A stretch of DNA of 64,000 nt from Candidatus Pacebacteria bacterium CG_4_9_14_0_2_um_filter_40_15 (GCA_002788675.1 PFRS01000008.1:70848-134847); one strand, 5' to 3'. Counted from the first letter of the stretch, positions 39,403 to 43,423 are shown. Translations and numbers: made by a program. The notes: a model not told the origin generated them from the sequence alone.

Positions 39403-39729
39403 TTATCCATCCCCACCAGTATCAAACTGATTGTACATTCTACACACCAGTGGTTGAAACCACCCATTGGTGCAGCGACCGCTCATATGACGGCCGTTAA
39501 CAATTAGTTCGAAGGTGACATCGTGGGGGTCACCAAACACCACATTTGTACTGGTCTGTCTTACAACTGTTACATTTTCAACAGTTGTTTCAGCAAACTC
39601 AGCAAAGCGCTGTGTCGCATCTTCGACTCGCACAAAAGACTTGTCCGCATAGGCTTAACAACCACCTAGGAACAAAAGCGCGAGAATTACTGCAATTGCA
39701 CCGGTTAAGATGTTACTTTTCAAGGCCAT
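39403..39729 (-). pseudogene. Lipoprotein gene interrupted by an in-frame TAA directly after the lipobox cysteine
   Basis: Minus strand: ggaggt ATG codes MALKSNILTGAIAVILALLFLGGC, then TAA (39657-39655). The same frame continues AYADKSFVRVEDATQRF... to the stop at 39403. Confidence 0.5.
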
Positions 39730-40358
39730 ACCTCCAAGTAGAATAAAAATAGTTCCTGGATCAAAGTTTAGGAACTATTTATTTTTCTACTTGAAGCTAC
39801 TTTATTTGAGTATATAAAAGAACATCACTCAAAATGAGCAAACGAAGTGTTTGCACAGAGTGATTTTGTGGAGATGGCGAAGAGTGACCTCGCGTCCGAA
39901 ATAGCAGCATGAATATCATCTACAGATTTAGTCTATCCTTGTTAATGCAGTAGAGGGAAAATAGACAAGCCTTCATACTACAATCTCCGTCTAAAAGTCT
40001 TAGAATAGTTCCGACGAACGAGAACTACCTGTCACACTAGCTGGGTTGATCACATACTCCCTCACACCAGTGAGATGAAAAGAGTACATGCCTTTTTCTA
40101 AGCTTAAGCAGCTATGAAAGAAGGAGCAAAGCTCATTGAAGGAGCTAAGTCAGCGATTGCTTTCTTAGTGTTCAGGAGAATGCTTTTTGCAGTATTATTT
40201 GCAATTATGTTTTTGACTCTGTTTTGCGTCTGTTAGTCAAAGACGATCTGCAGATATTAATGAGCGTATCCCGTCAAAGCAGTTCATCCCCACTTTAACA
40301 AATGTTATAAGATTATTATAGTATACTGCGACTAGAATCACAATTGCGAACTTGTGAA

Positions 40359-41249
40359 CTAAAGATAGCGGTCTACTAATTCCTGAACTAATGAGACAGA
40401 TGTATGCACTGATTCAAATCCTTTGAAACCAGGAAAAGCATTTACTTCCGTTAAGTAGTAGTTTTTTTGATCATCAACAAGAAAGTCAATTCCAGCAAAA
40501 TTAACGCCAAGTACTGAAGCAATTTTTTTCGATAATTTGATGAGCTTTTCGTCCGTTGGATACAAGGTAGCTGAGCCTCCTTGTTTCAAATTTGCCTTAA
40601 ATGAATGGCCTGGATTAGTTCTTTTTATTGCTCCAATTACAGTACCATGTGAGATGATCACTCGTATATCCGTGCCCTTACTTGCCACAATTGCTTGCTG
40701 TACAAGAAGTTGCGATTCTTTTGAAGAAACCGAGTAGGAAAAAGAAAGTAGATCTTCAAGTTCCCGATAATTTTCAATCCAGTACACTCCATTTCCGAGT
40801 GAGCCTTCAGGAGTTTTAACTACAACAGGAAAGCTAAAGTCTGAAAAGTCAGATTCTGAATATACTTCTGATAGAGTGATAAGTCGAGTATGGGGAACTG
40901 GAATACCTGCATGAGCAAGGATACTGTTTGTGAGCCATTTATCCGCCATAATTTCAATAGCATCTGGTGAGTTGACCAGCTTTACTCCAGATGATTGAAA
41001 AAAATGAAGAATATAGCGTGTTTTTTCTTTTCTAGTTTCACTTTTAACTACAGAGAGTAAGAAGTCACCTTTTCCTGGAAGGTTTTTTTTGGAAGCAGTT
41101 GTATCTAACACAATATCTTCAATATAAATTACTTCGTACGGAAGATTCTTTTTCTTTGCATATGCAACACTGCCAGAAATTTTGTCACGTTTAGTTTGAG
41201 AGAGTGCCTGATCAGAGCGATTTGCAAGAATCCAAAGTTTTTTTGACAT
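40359..41249 (-). CDS. RimK-like ATP-grasp ligase (alpha-L-glutamate ligase family)
   Basis: PVVVKTPEGSLGNGVYWI; GTDIRVIISHGTVIGAIKRTNPGHSFKANLKQGGSA; VNFAGIDFLVDDQKNYYLTEVNAFPGF. AAGGA lies 9 nt upstream of the ATG at 41249. The gene starts 1 nt after the upstream gene's stop. Confidence 0.75.
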   Translation of the reverse strand: MSKKLWILANRSDQALSQTKRDKISGSVAYAKKKNLPYEVIYIEDIVLDTTASKKNLPGKGDFLLSVVKSETRKEKTRYILHFFQSSGVKLVNSPDAIEIMADKWLTNSILAHAGIPVPHTRLITLSEVYSESDFSDFSFPVVVKTPEGSLGNGVYWIENYRELEDLLSFSYSVSSKESQLLVQQAIVASKGTDIRVIISHGTVIGAIKRTNPGHSFKANLKQGGSATLYPTDEKLIKLSKKIASVLGVNFAGIDFLVDDQKNYYLTEVNAFPGFKGFESVHTSVSLVQELVDRYL

Positions 41250-41250
41250 A

Positions 41251-42693
41251 TTATTTTTCCTTAAACAGCTCATTAAGTAACGTCTCATCATCATTGAGCG
41301 AAGTGAATAACTTTCTTCTAAATGTTTTTTTAGTGGTTACCAATCGCTTTGCCATTTTATCGATAGCAATCATTGCTAAGACAGATTGCACATAGCCCTC
41401 AATTAAGTCATCAAGGCTTAAGCCAAGTTTGTTGAAATCACGTTGGTCCATGAGGAGAAGGCGACTTGTGTCACTATCCCATTCATGTTCACCTTTTTTG
41501 ACTGAAAGATTGGTCATTAAGATATTTTTTGAGTCTTTGCCAGCAATGTTGGCAGTTAATGGCTCTTCAGCTTTTCTACTGTACAGTCCAAGAGGTCTAA
41601 GGCCATTTTCAGTAGTATGCACTAGCATTCGTAAGTCGAATACGTAACTATTTTGTCTTTTACTCGGAATTGTTCCTACCTGGAATAACAGCTCGTTCTC
41701 ATGGTAAGTACTCCAAGCATAGTGACCAACCAAACGTTGGATAATAAATTTCTGGTAGGGAATATCCAGGTCCATAAAGGCTTCAAGTTCTTTTTCATTA
41801 ATGATGGTAAACACACCCTGTCCAGCATTACTGTATGGAATTTTTATTACTCCTTTGTAACCAAATTTTTCCAGCCAAAGAGGAATCTCGTTTTTATTGA
41901 CGTCCCAGATTGTTGTCGGAGTTTTAATCTCGAGTCCAGCCTCGGCAACCTCAGCGTTTAAAAAATCATAGGCTTTTGCTGCCATCAGTTTATTTCGTCC
42001 ACCAGCAAGACAAGCAATAATGGGGTTAAAGATACGAGTTTTTGAAAAGAGTGGTAGTCGATTCCAAGGTTTTTGGGTTACATAGCGAAAGATCGTCCGC
42101 ACTGGGGTCCATTTATCATTAATAAGTAATTCGATTGCTCGTGTTTCAGAATTGAATCGTATACACTTGCCATAATCCTCTTCATGATACTCAACCAAAT
42201 ACACATCTTTTTTGATGAGATCGGCTATCGTAGCTGCGTAGCCTGAGTTTTCCATGGGATTTTTATCATACACGACACAAGTGACACCTTTTTTGAGAGG
42301 GCTTTTTTTCCAGATAGGTAAAAAAGTCTTGCTAATGAGTTCTTCGTACCCGCCTTTTTCATTATTTTCATCAAGTAATGGAAATGATTTTTGACCTGAA
42401 GGACAAGAGTTCGTTTCAATAACAACCATTTGTTTCATGCCTTCGGTTGTGGTTGTATGCATGAGGTCAGTACCAGCCCACTTGAAATATTTTGGTGTGT
42501 ATTTAAGTAAGTCTCTTAAATATTCAGCGTCTATAGATGGATTCAGATACGAGAATCGCTGAATAATACGCTCGTTATCCATGTTCATAAAGAACGAGAC
42601 AACAGGGTGTATTTGGGCATTGAGTGCCTTTGAGTACCAATGTTTATGGGGTGAGAAGCTTTGTGGTTTAACGACAACGATAGATGAGTTCAT
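41251..42693 (-). CDS. Tubulin-tyrosine-ligase (TTL)-like ATP-grasp protein
   Basis: TTL-family motifs in canonical order: the P-loop-like KIPYSNAGQGVF; QKFIIQRLV matching QKYI; YVFDLRMLVHT matching FDxRxYVLV; ILMTNLSVKK matching HLTNYSxQK. The start is uncertain: GTG at 42789 or ATG at 42693. Confidence 0.6.
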   Translation of the reverse strand: MNSSIVVVKPQSFSPHKHWYSKALNAQIHPVVSFFMNMDNERIIQRFSYLNPSIDAEYLRDLLKYTPKYFKWAGTDLMHTTTTEGMKQMVVIETNSCPSGQKSFPLLDENNEKGGYEELISKTFLPIWKKSPLKKGVTCVVYDKNPMENSGYAATIADLIKKDVYLVEYHEEDYGKCIRFNSETRAIELLINDKWTPVRTIFRYVTQKPWNRLPLFSKTRIFNPIIACLAGGRNKLMAAKAYDFLNAEVAEAGLEIKTPTTIWDVNKNEIPLWLEKFGYKGVIKIPYSNAGQGVFTIINEKELEAFMDLDIPYQKFIIQRLVGHYAWSTYHENELLFQVGTIPSKRQNSYVFDLRMLVHTTENGLRPLGLYSRKAEEPLTANIAGKDSKNILMTNLSVKKGEHEWDSDTSRLLLMDQRDFNKLGLSLDDLIEGYVQSVLAMIAIDKMAKRLVTTKKTFRRKLFTSLNDDETLLNELFKEK

Positions 42694-42763
42694 ATGTGTA
42701 GAGTAAACTTGTAATCTCGCTATTATAGTCCAAGTTTTTGGCTCGCATACCGGTAATTTATCA

Positions 42764-43423
42764 TTAGACACGGATGCAAAATACGGCACAGTGACACCCC
42801 AGTGAGAGTTTTTGTAGCTCGTACACGCATTCTCTCAGAGTTGAGCCAGTAGTGCAAACATCATCAACAAGAAGCACCTTTTTGTGTGCAAGTGTCTGTT
42901 GCACGGTAAGCTGTGGTAAAAGTGAAAACCGATGCTCAGCATTCTTGAGTCTTTCTTTTCGAGAGTTCGTTTTTGCTTGTGCACCACTCTGAGTGTTTTT
43001 TTTGAGTGTGGTGATGTAAGGTTTGTTCAGAAGCGTGGCAAGGTTTTGGGCTATAAGTTGTGTATGGTCAAAACCTCTGCGTTTTTTTCTGACTGGATCT
43101 GGAGGAACTGATGTTATGAAGTCTATTGAGGGTAGTGAGGCGTGATGAAAGAGGAGTTCTGCAATTCTTTTTCCAAACGCAGGTATTCCACGGTATTTAA
43201 ATGTATGAATAATTCTTCTTGAGTCCTGATTAAATCGGCACACAGCAACCAGTGAAAGATCAGGATAGTACACTGGAGCCTCAATCTGTGTACAAAAATC
43301 CAACTTATGACTGCAGCGAGTACAGAGTACAGTTCCAGGCCATTCACAGAAAAGACAACAGTGGGGGAAGAGTACTGCAACTAAGAGAGTTCCAATAGTT
43401 TTGAGAGGGGTGAGTGGGGTCAC
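42764..43423 (-). CDS. comF: ComF family protein (ComFC-like phosphoribosyltransferase)
   Basis: An N-terminal zinc ribbon CLFC...CTRC and the C-terminal PRTase motif VLLVDDVCTTGSTL. Confidence 0.7.
   Translation of the reverse strand: MTPLTPLKTIGTLLVAVLFPHCCLFCEWPGTVLCTRCSHKLDFCTQIEAPVYYPDLSLVAVCRFNQDSRRIIHTFKYRGIPAFGKRIAELLFHHASLPSIDFITSVPPDPVRKKRRGFDHTQLIAQNLATLLNKPYITTLKKNTQSGAQAKTNSRKERLKNAEHRFSLLPQLTVQQTLAHKKVLLVDDVCTTGSTLRECVYELQKLSLGCHCAVFCIRV

What the first reader, a model, noticed from the sequence alone, without database searches (positions are those of the whole stretch)
40359..43423. Operon pairing a tubulin-tyrosine-ligase-like ATP-grasp with a RimK-like glutamate ligase
The 480-512-aa protein carries TTL-family motifs in canonical order: KIPYSNAGQGVF, QKFIIQRLV, YVFDLRMLV and ILMTNLSVKK. 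TTL/TTLL enzymes are eukaryotic tubulin C-terminal amino-acid ligases and are rare in bacteria. Its stop lies 1 nt before the start of a classical RimK-like ligase, which suggests translational coupling. RimK adds Glu residues to the C-terminus of ribosomal protein S6. Two C-terminal amino-acid ligases in one operon suggests a protein C-terminal tailing system with an unknown substrate. ComF is co-directional upstream. About 580 bp of non-coding DNA follows downstream.
Basis: partly seen in the sequence, partly recalled or inferred. Interest (0 to 1): 0.78.

Follow-up and report, generated by a model that had tools for sequence, protein, structure and literature searches.

The report
Orphan ATP-grasp ligase with RimK partner
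Two back-to-back amide-bond-forming enzymes are really there, but the large one is not a tubulin-tyrosine-ligase relative: it belongs to an unstudied, very conserved enzyme family, built like eukaryotic glutathione synthetase and shared by a few bacterial groups and scattered eukaryotes, whose product is still unknown.

Summary
The genes exist as described. On the minus strand, ComF-like (42764-43423), a 480-aa protein "c0" (41251-42693) and a RimK-family ligase (40359-41249) follow each other. The c0 stop and the RimK start are 1 nt apart.

The TTL reading fails:
- No Pfam hit at E<=10 in c0 or in 23 relatives.
- TTL/TTLL rank only 28th and lower among fold matches.
- The Mg-binding ExN motif lies near the N-terminus (VVIETNSCPSG). 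c0 is therefore circularly permuted, like eukaryotic glutathione synthetase.

c0 belongs to an unnamed family (895 clusters at 50% identity). It is 55% identical between Patescibacteria and Bacteroidota and 39-48% identical to proteins of fungi, Naegleria, rotifers and nematodes.

Its partners vary by lineage:
- A dedicated RimK-type ligase here.
- A GshB-like ligase plus an AstE/DoeB-like deacylase, often with polyamine and MscS genes, in Bacteroidota.
- A MATCAP-like peptidase with RloB/RloC-like genes in a sister lineage.

Most likely this is a two-step ATP-dependent synthesis of a small acidic peptide or amide. Protein C-terminal tailing remains a live rival. The "580 bp non-coding" stretch downstream is the tmRNA gene.

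The parts
41251..42693 (-). c0: a 480-aa ATP-grasp ligase of an unnamed, highly conserved family. It is circularly permuted and resembles eukaryotic glutathione synthetase and GshA(3k1t). The coordinates include the stop TAA at 41253-41251. The alternative GTG start at 42789 (512 aa) is unlikely.
   Evidence: - ORF. The start is supported by homologue N-termini and gene calls.
- No Pfam or PDB sequence hit.
- AF2 model with pLDDT 86 and pTM 0.90.
- Permutation shown by inverted order of matches to RimK-family models in 24/24 members.
- Invariant across bacteria and eukaryotes: E93, C97, G100, K235, K284, Q319, D353, R355, R411.
42397..42426 (-). Codons for VVIETNSCPS (residues 90-99). This is the start of the displaced E-x-N-x-x-P-G metal/phosphate-binding motif of the ATP-grasp fold, located near the N-terminus.
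   Evidence: - NCBIfam MptN model positions 246-273/291, which is its C-terminal part, match c0 residues 72-102 in all 24 members.
- hhalign's only local alignment to human glutathione synthetase puts E93/N95 on E144/N146, though it is not significant.
- E93 is invariant in bacteria and eukaryotes.
41812..41850 (-). Codons for VIKIPYSNAGQGV (residues 282-294). This is the ATP-binding Lys plus the Gly-rich flexible loop of the central domain.
   Evidence: - rimK_fam model positions 99-170/276 match c0 residues 255-322.
- K284 and G291 are invariant.
- The stretch lines up with VLKPxxxYGGKGI of the GshB-like proteins in hhalign, though that alignment is not significant.
40359..41249 (-). RimK-family ATP-grasp ligase, 296 aa from MSKKLW. 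It is the dedicated partner of c0. The coordinates include the stop codon.
   Evidence: - PF08443 E 8e-33. TIGR00768 rimK_fam scores 170.8 bits against a cutoff of 143.4. It is below the cutoffs of LysX, MptN, CofF and S6-Glu ligase.
- Best solved relatives are ArgX/LysX and RimK.
- Only 33 homologues were found. The close ones are all next to c0.
- It is orthologous to the RimK-like gene downstream of c0 in L096/L097/L098.
41247..41265 (-). Gene junction: AAGGA (Shine-Dalgarno-like) inside the end of c0, stop TAA, 1 nt, then the ATG of the RimK-like gene. The arrangement is compatible with translational coupling.
   Evidence: Sequence read directly. Relatives have gaps of 9-11 nt.

Best explanation
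The locus encodes a two-enzyme, ATP-dependent amide-bond assembly module.

c0 is a catalytically intact ATP-grasp ligase. Its domain order is circularly permuted like that of eukaryotic glutathione synthetase. Its closest solved fold is a chain deposited as glutamate-cysteine ligase GshA (3k1t).

By the chemistry common to the superfamily (inferred), c0 phosphorylates a carboxylate to an acyl-phosphate and couples it to an amine, making a first amide: a dipeptide-like or N-acyl/aminoacyl compound with a free alpha-carboxylate. The translationally coupled RimK-family enzyme then activates that free carboxylate and adds one or more L-glutamate-type residues. MptN, CofF, RIMKLA/B and RimK do the same on their substrates.

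The product is most likely a small, acidic, non-ribosomal peptide or amide rather than a modified protein. Its role is probably in ionic or osmotic balance (glutamate/polyamine). In Bacteroidota the same c0 is joined to a GshB-like second ligase and an AstE/AspA/DoeB-like deacylase, and often to arginine decarboxylase, agmatinase, a homospermidine-synthase-like gene and MscS. In the sister lineage it sits beside RloB/RloC-like genes, whose Pseudomonas counterparts are tied to hypo-osmotic stress.

Shown: the fold, the permutation, the intact motifs, the conserved pairings and the gene neighbourhoods. Inferred: the order of the two steps, glutamate as the added residue, the small-molecule nature of the product and the physiological role.
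For: 1. ATP-grasp fold with small-molecule ligases on top.
- Foldseek: human, yeast and plant glutathione synthetase at E 4e-9 to 1e-7 over about 430-450 columns.

2. Permutation and intact catalytic motifs.

3. The second ligase is always a C-terminal-carboxylate-extending type, but it is not orthologous between lineages.
- RimK-type here and in L096-L098.
- GshB-like in Bacteroidota, only 26% identical over 106 aa to the window's enzyme.
- This points to an extendable free carboxylate on the c0 product.

4. Among 63 species-level loci with at least 2.5 kb of downstream sequence:
- AstE-like deacylase within 5 kb in 46.
- GshB-like ligase in 37.
- Polyamine genes in 20.
- MscS in 16.
- The deacylase aligns full-length to DoeB and AstE/AspA, which are small-molecule N-acyl-amino-acid hydrolases.

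5. L099 has ADC-agmatinase-DHS-MscS-c0-GshB-like-AstE as one co-directional block. The order of these genes differs between loci.

6. No acidic-tailed candidate substrate is encoded in the window.

7. RloB/RloC are linked to osmotic stress tolerance, and RloA cleaves polyglutamate substrates in vitro (PMC11957051).

8. c0 also occurs alone in some bacteria and in eukaryotes, so it makes a product by itself.
Against: - No product or substrate is identified. Everything about chemistry is by analogy.
- c0 is unusually constrained: 83-88% identical where its RimK partner is 46-59%, and 39-48% identical to eukaryotic homologues. That would also fit a conserved macromolecular substrate.
- A MATCAP-family peptidase neighbours the pair in the sister lineage.
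- A small protein with a poly-D/E tail recurs near c0 in 11 of the 63 tallied Bacteroidota loci (13 loci in all).
- The window has neither the deacylase, the polyamine genes, MscS nor the Rlo-like genes. The physiological inference is therefore imported from other lineages.
- One close relative (L008) lacks the RimK-like gene.
Confidence: 0.45

Rival explanations
1. Protein C-terminal (or side-chain) amino-acid tailing system. c0 initiates and the RimK-like enzyme elongates an amino-acid tail on a conserved protein. Peptidases (AstE/M14-like, MATCAP-like) remove it. This would be functionally analogous to the RimK/RimB and TTL(L)/CCP/MATCAP cycles, without c0 being a TTL homologue.
For: - RimK-family partner, whose best solved relatives are ArgX/LysX and RimK, all of which act on protein C-termini.
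- A MATCAP-family HExxH peptidase lies next to the pair in L096, L097 and L098, with up to four RimK-like paralogues.
- Very strong sequence constraint on c0 across domains of life.
- A small protein with a long D/E tail recurs in Bacteroidota loci.
- Bacterial c0 proteins are mildly basic, median pI 8.8.
Against: - No candidate substrate gene is conserved next to c0. None with an acidic tail is in the window.
- The C-terminus of the acidic-tail protein is not conserved and its tail length varies.
- The commonest hydrolase partner is closest to small-molecule deacylases (DoeB, AstE/AspA), not to protein carboxypeptidases.
- The top fold neighbours of c0 are metabolite ligases.
- MATCAP adjacency is seen in one lineage only, on the opposite strand, and with shared synteny (mnmA, truB). 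It therefore counts as roughly one observation.
Confidence: 0.25
2. Polyamine-conjugating ligase. c0 works like glutathionylspermidine or trypanothione synthetase and couples a carboxylate (an amino acid or small peptide made or extended by the second ligase) to putrescine, agmatine or homospermidine. The deacylase is the matching amidase.
For: - Arginine-decarboxylase-like, agmatinase and homospermidine-synthase-like genes lie within 7 kb of c0 in 20 of 63 loci, in several different arrangements.
- Synthetase plus amidase logic is known from E. coli GspSA (established knowledge).
Against: - No polyamine genes are in the window or in the sister-lineage loci.
- GspS-type hits score lower than 3k1t.
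- No sequence-level link to the GspS families.
- Eukaryotic carriers of c0 are not known for homospermidine (own knowledge).
Confidence: 0.12
3. Glutathione-type thiol tripeptide synthesis. c0 is a divergent gamma-glutamylcysteine ligase of the rare ATP-grasp 'GshA' type, and the second enzyme adds the third residue.
For: - The next gene in Bacteroidota is GshB-like: PF02955 at 97 bits, and E. coli GshB is its best solved relative.
Against: - No match to any GshA or glutathione-synthetase model at sequence level in 24 members.
- The GshB-like partner scores 122-128 bits against cutoffs of 272-299 and lacks a GSH-S_N hit.
- The window's partner is RimK-type, not GshB-type.
- A deacylase partner and eukaryotic homologues, in organisms that already have canonical enzymes, are not explained.
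Confidence: 0.08
4. One reading: c0 is a bacterial member of the TTL/TTLL family.
For: - General ATP-grasp motifs are present (K plus Gly-loop, hinge, D-x-R).
Against: - No PF03133 hit at E<=10 in any of 24 members.
- 27 other ATP-grasp structures score better.
- The domain order is permuted relative to classical ATP-grasps.
Confidence: 0.02

Closest known systems
PDB 3k1t, 'glutamate-cysteine ligase GshA' of Methylobacillus flagellatus (rare ATP-grasp-type GshA; TIGR02049/PF08886 assignment is from my own knowledge)
   Different: No sequence-level relationship is detectable by phmmer, by the A1 profile against PDB, or by Pfam and NCBIfam at E<=10. c0 has its own invariant motifs (NSCPSGQK, FRYVTQKPW, GGRNK). 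Its substrates are unknown.
Eukaryotic glutathione synthetase (human 2hgs, yeast 1m0w, potato 5oes)
   Same: These give the best Foldseek hits, at E 4e-9 to 1e-7 over about 430-450 aligned columns. They have the same permuted order of ATP-grasp elements: ExN first, then the Lys/Gly loop. By eye the motifs are colinear: IEINT/VIETN, LAGTKK/LAGGRNK, VLKPQREGGG/VIKIPYSNAGQG. The human sequence was verified against 2hgs.
   Different: TM-score is only about 0.42. hhalign is not significant, E 0.33. There is no PF03917 hit. The c0 family has a distinct phyletic pattern and distinct partners.
RimK family alpha-L-glutamate ligases (RimK, MptN, CofF, LysX/ArgX, mammalian RIMKLA/B)
   Same: The downstream 296-aa protein passes the TIGR00768 cutoff and has the classical, colinear ATP-grasp order. 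Family members extend a free carboxylate with glutamate.
   Different: It is below the cutoffs of every characterised equivalog: S6-Glu ligase 71 vs 331, MptN 117 vs 350, CofF 74 vs 300, LysX 133 vs 276. It forms a small clade found only beside c0. c0 itself shows only marginal, permuted matches to these models.
TTL/TTLL tubulin amino-acid ligases, with MATCAP and CCP as erasers
   Same: They share the ATP-grasp chemistry. In the sister lineage the c0-RimK pair lies beside a MATCAP-family peptidase gene. The 'ligase plus carboxypeptidase' logic could therefore be analogous.
   Different: There is no TTL HMM hit, only low fold rank, and a permuted topology. No tubulin-like or other substrate has been identified.
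Pseudomonas Rim (RimK/RimB) and Rlo (RloA/RloB/RloC) systems
   Same: These are ATP-grasp ligases combined with peptidases that cut polyglutamate. The Rlo system is linked to hypo-osmotic stress (PMC11957051). RloB-like (7TM_transglut) and RloC-like (ATPgrasp_ST) genes lie beside c0 in L096-L098.
   Different: The window has no RloB-, RloC-, retropepsin- or MATCAP-like gene. c0 has no counterpart in the described Rim or Rlo operons.
Glutathionylspermidine/trypanothione synthetases and E. coli YgiC
   Different: They score lower than 3k1t. There is no sequence match. No polyamine genes lie near c0 in the window.

Membership tests
TTL/TTLL (Pfam PF03133) | Significant match to the TTL profile HMM | tested here: not met
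   There is no Pfam family at E<=10 for c0. None of 24 family members hits TTL at E<=10.
TTL/TTLL (Pfam PF03133) | Classical (non-permuted) order of ATP-grasp elements, with the ExN motif C-terminal to the Lys/Gly-loop | tested here: not met
   In 24/24 members the C-terminal part of the MptN model (positions 246-273/291) matches residues 72-102. The central part of rimK_fam (positions 99-170/276) matches residues 255-322. That TTL has the classical order is established knowledge and was not tested here.
TTL/TTLL (Pfam PF03133) | TTL/TTLL structures are the nearest structural neighbours | tested here: not met
ATP-grasp superfamily (c0) | ATP-grasp fold | tested here: met
ATP-grasp superfamily (c0) | Conserved nucleotide/metal-binding residues: Lys before a Gly-rich loop, hinge, D-x-R, E-x-N | tested here: met
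   K284, G291, Q319, D353, R355 and E93 are invariant in bacteria and eukaryotes. N95 is invariant in 24 bacterial members. Their roles are assigned by analogy, not by a ligand-bound structure.
Eukaryotic-type (circularly permuted) glutathione synthetase, Pfam PF03917 | Permuted domain order | tested here: met
   One search shows the inverted order of matches. Foldseek gives full-length sequential alignments to 2hgs, 8fbz and 1m0w.
Eukaryotic-type (circularly permuted) glutathione synthetase, Pfam PF03917 | Significant sequence match to the family | tested here: not met
   There is no Pfam hit. hhalign of A1 against human GS gives E 0.33.
ATP-grasp-type glutamate-cysteine ligase GshA (3k1t; PF08886/TIGR02049) | Significant match to the family HMMs | tested here: not met
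   It is not among the Pfam or NCBIfam hits of 24 members at E<=10. HMMER filters may hide very weak matches.
ATP-grasp-type glutamate-cysteine ligase GshA (3k1t; PF08886/TIGR02049) | Glu + Cys ligase activity | not testable with these tools
   This needs an enzyme assay or gshA complementation.
RimK family alpha-L-glutamate ligase (TIGR00768), for the 296-aa partner | Score above the curated family cutoff | tested here: met
   170.8 bits against a cutoff of 143.4. PF08443 E 8e-33.
Ribosomal protein S6--L-glutamate ligase RimK proper (NF007764), for the 296-aa partner | Score above the equivalog cutoff | tested here: not met
   71.3 bits against a cutoff of 331.
Rlo-type system (7TM inactive transglutaminase + ATPgrasp_ST ligase + peptidase) | RloB-like and RloC-like genes present at the locus | tested here: not met
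   tblastn of the L096/L097 proteins against the whole 64-kb window finds only c0 and the RimK-like gene. These genes are present beside c0 in L096, L097 and L098.
Known anti-phage defence systems (PADLOC) | Match of c0 or of the RimK-like protein to a defence-system model | tested here: not met
   There are no PADLOC hits for either protein.

The most novel reading that the evidence does not exclude
c0 is the founding enzyme of a previously unrecognised, reversible amino-acid-ligation system that bacteria (Bacteroidota, some Patescibacteria and relatives) share with scattered eukaryotes (chytrids, Mortierellomycota, Naegleria, Foraminifera, rotifers, trichinellid nematodes, a red alga). It either writes a new kind of C-terminal or side-chain protein tail, with RimK/GshB-like elongators and MATCAP- or AstE-like erasers, or it makes a hitherto unknown widespread metabolite such as an acidic peptide or peptide-polyamine conjugate used in osmotic or ionic homeostasis.
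Probability: 0.2. Interest if true: 0.85.

Novelty: new variant of a known kind. Interest (0 to 1): 0.58.

Why it matters
- The large protein belongs to a sizeable family: 895 clusters at 50% identity, and more than 570 species-level bacterial genomes. The family has no Pfam or NCBIfam model, no solved structure and no paper that I could find.
- It is nevertheless conserved at 40-56% identity between candidate-phyla-radiation bacteria, Bacteroidota and several eukaryotic supergroups.
- Its gene partners give concrete, testable hypotheses for a new ATP-dependent peptide or amide product, or for a new protein modification. The partners are a second ligase of varying type, deacylase or MATCAP-like peptidases, polyamine synthesis genes, a mechanosensitive channel and Rlo-like genes.
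- For a genome-reduced patescibacterium, keeping about 2.3 kb for this pair implies a function worth knowing.
- The finding also corrects a tempting mis-annotation (TTL-like). It shows that the 'empty' downstream DNA is the tmRNA gene.

Tried and rejected
- Sequence searches of c0 and of the 24-member profile against PDB chains gave only chance hits at E>=0.1.
- hhalign of the c0 profile against the Bacteroidota GshB-like alignment (probability 1.5%) and against human glutathione synthetase (E 0.33) was not significant. I used these only as weak, consistent hints.
- The afdb50 fold library was unavailable.
- Pfam on ten long or multi-stretch homologues found no informative fusion. The only one was a Trichinella gene-model fusion to CTF18/AAA.
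- Literature searches found no paper on this family. I tried ATP-grasp with aspartoacylase, homospermidine, succinylglutamate desuccinylase, ferrooxidans GshA, MATCAP and DUF1704. Iyer et al. 2009 (PMC3268129) is not held.
- A metagenome scan with the RimK-partner alignment returned only the window's own copy and the L096 copy beside c0. The other 56 loci were generic RimK-like genes at or below 33% identity in unrelated contexts.
- A search for ORFs with acidic C-termini in the window found none convincing.
- Isoelectric points do not discriminate between the substrate classes.
- ARAGORN did not find the tmRNA that Rfam finds clearly.
- I considered ComF or tmRNA as functional partners and rejected both. 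They are syntenic only within the window's own clade and absent from L096-L098 and from Bacteroidota.
- I considered a defence-system role. There are no PADLOC hits for either ligase.


Full report
**What is in the sequence.**
On the minus strand there are three consecutive ORFs:
- a ComF-like phosphoribosyltransferase-type protein (42764-43423, 219 aa);
- a large ORF (41251-42789 from a GTG, 512 aa);
- a 296-311-aa ORF (40359-41249/41294).

Read directly, its stop TAA is at 41253-41251, then one base, then the ATG of the next gene at 41249. An AAGGA lies 8-12 nt upstream. Homologues and independent gene calls start the large protein at MNSSIVVV (42693), giving 480 aa. That leaves 70 nt after the ComF stop, so the ComF overlap of the 512-aa form is probably not real. 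I call the 480-aa protein c0.

**The downstream gene is RimK-family.**
- It matches PF08443 at E 8e-33.
- It passes the NCBIfam RimK-family cutoff (TIGR00768, 170.8 vs 143.4 bits).
- It stays far below the cutoffs of the characterised equivalogs: S6-Glu ligase, MptN, CofF and LysX.
- Its best solved relatives are ArgX/LysX and RimK.

**The TTL claim fails.**
- c0 has no Pfam hit even at E<=10.
- c0 has no NCBIfam hit of note and no sequence match in the PDB.
- Scanning all 24 members of an alignment of c0 homologues (A1) individually gives no TTL, glutathione-synthetase, GshA or permuted-ATP-grasp Pfam hit. Only marginal RimK and ATP-grasp hits appear.

An AlphaFold2 model built on that alignment is confident (pLDDT 86, pTM 0.90).

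By Foldseek:
- The top hits are human, yeast and potato glutathione synthetase, 3k1t and 3n6x (E 4e-9 to 1e-7, about 430-450 aligned columns).
- Classical ATP-grasps come at 1e-4 to 1e-3.
- No TTL is in the top 50.

**c0 is circularly permuted.**
- In all 24 members, the NCBIfam MptN model matches c0 residues 72-102 with its positions 246-273 of 291. That is the C-terminal E-x-N-x-x-P-G part.
- The RimK-family model matches c0 residues 255-322 with its positions 99-170 of 276.
- The order is inverted relative to a classical ATP-grasp.
- The window's own RimK-like protein matches the same MptN model colinearly (80-290 to 78-285).

So VVIETNSCPSG near the N-terminus is the metal/phosphate motif.

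This is the arrangement known for eukaryotic glutathione synthetase (established knowledge). By eye the human enzyme, whose sequence I verified against 2hgs, shows the same motif order:
- IEINTISASFGG against VIETNSCPSGQ;
- LAGTKK against LAGGRNK;
- VLKPQREGGG against VIKIPYSNAGQG.

The only hhalign local alignment puts E93/N95 on E144/N146, but it is not statistically significant.

Residues E93, C97, G100, K235, K284, Q319, D353, R355 and R411 are invariant across bacterial and eukaryotic members. The enzyme therefore looks catalytically competent.

**The family.**
- c0 has more than 3,600 homologues in the 90%-clustered database, all without Pfam domains and nearly all named 'hypothetical'.
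- An exhaustive HMM search finds 895 clusters at 50% identity, 668 of them at E<=1e-10.
- The exact protein is from Candidatus Pacebacteria (Patescibacteria).
- In GTDB species representatives there are at least 571 carriers. Most are Saprospiraceae, Lewinellaceae and Flavobacteriales, with a few Patescibacteria and others.

Unexpectedly, strong full-length homologues occur in eukaryotes: Podila and Haplosporangium, Ramicandelaber, the chytrid Rhizoclosmatium, Fonticula, Naegleria fowleri (two copies), Reticulomyxa, Cyanidium, the rotifer Rotaria, and Trichinella and Trichuris. Many lie on large contigs, and several have interrupted matches suggesting introns. There is also one giant-virus MAG.

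The window's c0 is 55-56% identical to Bacteroidota proteins and 39-48% identical to eukaryotic ones.

**Partners of c0.**
I clustered ORFs from 80 species-level loci and annotated the recurrent ones.

In Bacteroidota the core is three genes:
- c0;
- a GshB-like ATP-grasp (PF02955 97 bits; glutathione-synthase models 122-128 bits, below cutoffs of 272-299);
- an AstE/AspA-family deacylase, whose best matches are DoeB and 3na6.

Among 63 loci with enough downstream sequence:
- the deacylase is within 5 kb in 46;
- the GshB-like gene in 37, and immediately downstream in 33;
- both in 36;
- the deacylase without the ligase in 10;
- neither in 16.

Other genes within 7 kb in the same 63 loci:
- arginine-decarboxylase-like, agmatinase (above cutoff) or homospermidine-synthase-like genes in 20, in varying arrangements;
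- MscS in 16;
- a two-component system in 17;
- a small protein with a conserved roughly 90-aa domain and a variable poly-D/E tail in 11.

One Bacteroidota contig has all of these co-directional: ADC-agmatinase-DHS-MscS-c0-GshB-like-AstE (L099). c0 also stands alone in some bacteria and on a eukaryote-like contig.

**The window's own pairing.**
- The window's RimK-like protein is not the orthologue of the Bacteroidota GshB-like protein (26% identity over 106 aa).
- It has only 33 detectable homologues.
- Those at 46-59% identity all lie 9-11 nt downstream of a c0 gene, in the same TPR-ComF-c0-RimK arrangement.
- In those loci c0 is 83-88% identical. c0 is therefore far more constrained than its partner.
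- One relative (L008, c0 71%) has ComF-c0-tmRNA with no RimK-like gene.

A neighbour-joining tree puts the window's clade with a low-GC lineage (L096, L097, L098; c0 57-63%) at 100% bootstrap. Together they are sister to the Bacteroidota clade (97%). The eukaryotes lie outside and are unresolved.

In that sister lineage:
- c0 is again followed directly by a RimK-like gene that is the best match of the window's partner (30-32% identity, full length).
- The pair lies next to an opposite-strand block: MATCAP-family HExxH peptidase (PF08014), ATPgrasp_ST ligase, and 7TM inactive transglutaminase.
- L097 carries three further RimK-like paralogues.

The last two genes of that block correspond to RloC and RloB of Pseudomonas aeruginosa. 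There, loss of the cognate polyglutamate-cleaving proteases causes hypo-osmotic sensitivity, which is suppressed by rloB or rloC mutations (PMC11957051).

None of these extra genes is in the 64-kb window. This covers the deacylase, polyamine genes, MscS, MATCAP-like, RloB/C-like and acidic-tail protein genes.

**Interpretation.**

Shown:
- c0 is an intact, circularly permuted, glutathione-synthetase-like ATP-grasp ligase of an unnamed family.
- It is coupled here to a dedicated RimK-family ligase.
- Across lineages a second, non-orthologous 'carboxylate-extending' ligase and a hydrolase are recruited next to it.

Inferred:
- c0 makes a first amide with a free carboxylate.
- The RimK-like enzyme extends it with glutamate-type residues.
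- The product is a small acidic peptide or amide, tied to glutamate/polyamine/osmotic balance.

I favour the small-molecule reading (confidence about 0.45) for three reasons:
- the top fold neighbours are metabolite ligases;
- the commonest hydrolase partner is closest to N-acyl-amino-acid deacylases;
- no substrate protein gene is conserved, and no acidic-tailed ORF exists in the window.

It stays alive (about 0.25) for these reasons:
- the RimK/LysX affinities;
- the MATCAP-family neighbour;
- the D/E-tailed small protein;
- the extreme conservation of c0.

A polyamine-conjugating role (about 0.12) and a glutathione-like pathway (about 0.08) are narrower variants. TTL membership is essentially excluded.

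**Other points.**
tmRNA follows the pair in the relatives too. That is synteny within this clade, not evidence of function.
- Neither ligase matches PADLOC models.

**Novelty and score.**
The kind of enzyme (ATP-grasp amide ligase, two-ligase operon) is known. The family, its permuted GS-like build, its cross-domain distribution and its partner set are, as far as I could find, undescribed. I rate it a new variant of a known kind, with interest about 0.58.

Noticed in passing
window 39866-40291 (-): tmRNA (ssrA) gene immediately downstream of the RimK-like gene: Rfam RF00023, 104.7 bits, E 6e-41. ARAGORN did not report it. A promoter-like TTGTGA-17-TATAAT lies at 40343-40315. The same c0(-RimK)-tmRNA order is seen in L007 and L008.
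   Followed up: yes
window 39403-39729 (-): A lipoprotein-like signal peptide (MALKSNILTGAIAVILALLFLGGC) is followed by an in-frame TAA and then by the 76-aa ORF that gene callers annotate. This could be a disrupted gene, a sequencing error or read-through. The cause was not resolved.
   Followed up: partly
L046:7779-8216 (+), also L001:7584-7997 and 11 other Bacteroidota loci: A small protein with a conserved roughly 90-aa N-terminal domain (KPKVIKDYDKL...YYLIRMT) and a variable-length poly-Asp/Glu tail. It has no Pfam or NCBIfam hit. It recurs beside c0 and beside the arginine-decarboxylase-like gene. It might be a polyamine-binding protein or a substrate/carrier protein.
   Followed up: partly
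L099:3746-11495 (+): Seven co-directional genes on a Bacteroidota contig: arginine-decarboxylase-like, agmatinase, deoxyhypusine/homospermidine-synthase-like, MscS, c0, GshB-like ligase and AstE/AspA-like deacylase.
   Followed up: partly
L097:2773-11084; L096:6001-13443; L098:2336-8620: A nest of ATP-grasp genes around c0 in a low-GC (35%) lineage. It holds up to four RimK-like paralogues and an ATP-grasp_4 protein. It also holds a block of MATCAP-family (HEIGTHALR, EEGLA motifs) peptidase, ATPgrasp_ST ligase and 7TM inactive transglutaminase. The organism was not identified.
   Followed up: partly
P0154, P0158, P0164, P0171, P0178, P0186, P0198, P0216, P0309, P0325/P0326; L158: Full-length c0 homologues (39-48% identity where measured) occur in phylogenetically scattered eukaryotes: Mortierellomycota, Kickxellomycotina, a chytrid, Fonticula, Naegleria, Reticulomyxa, Cyanidium, a bdelloid rotifer and trichinellid nematodes. 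One is in a giant-virus MAG. All are unannotated.
   Followed up: partly
L008 (CAZKVV010000004.1) and L015 (JAGQLS010000006.1): The MAG labels look inconsistent with the content. L008 is labelled 'Pseudomonadales' but shares TPR-ComF-c0-tmRNA synteny and 71% c0 identity with the patescibacterial window. L015 is labelled 'Woesebacteria' but has a c0 only 54% identical and the response-regulator/histidine-kinase neighbours typical of Saprospiraceae loci. Mis-binning is possible.
   Followed up: no
window 42764-43423 (-): The ComF-like protein is below the ComF family cutoff (75.7 vs 233.6 bits). It gives PADLOC hits to phosphoribosyltransferase-type defence proteins (PsyrT E 1e-11, ShosT 5e-10). 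This is probably generic PRTase similarity.
   Followed up: no
L010:4708-5352 (+) and equivalents in L019, L030, L032, L064: A roughly 214-aa protein directly upstream of c0 in several Saprospiraceae loci. By eye it looks like a 2-oxoglutarate/Fe(II) prolyl-hydroxylase-type oxygenase. It was not run against Pfam.
   Followed up: no
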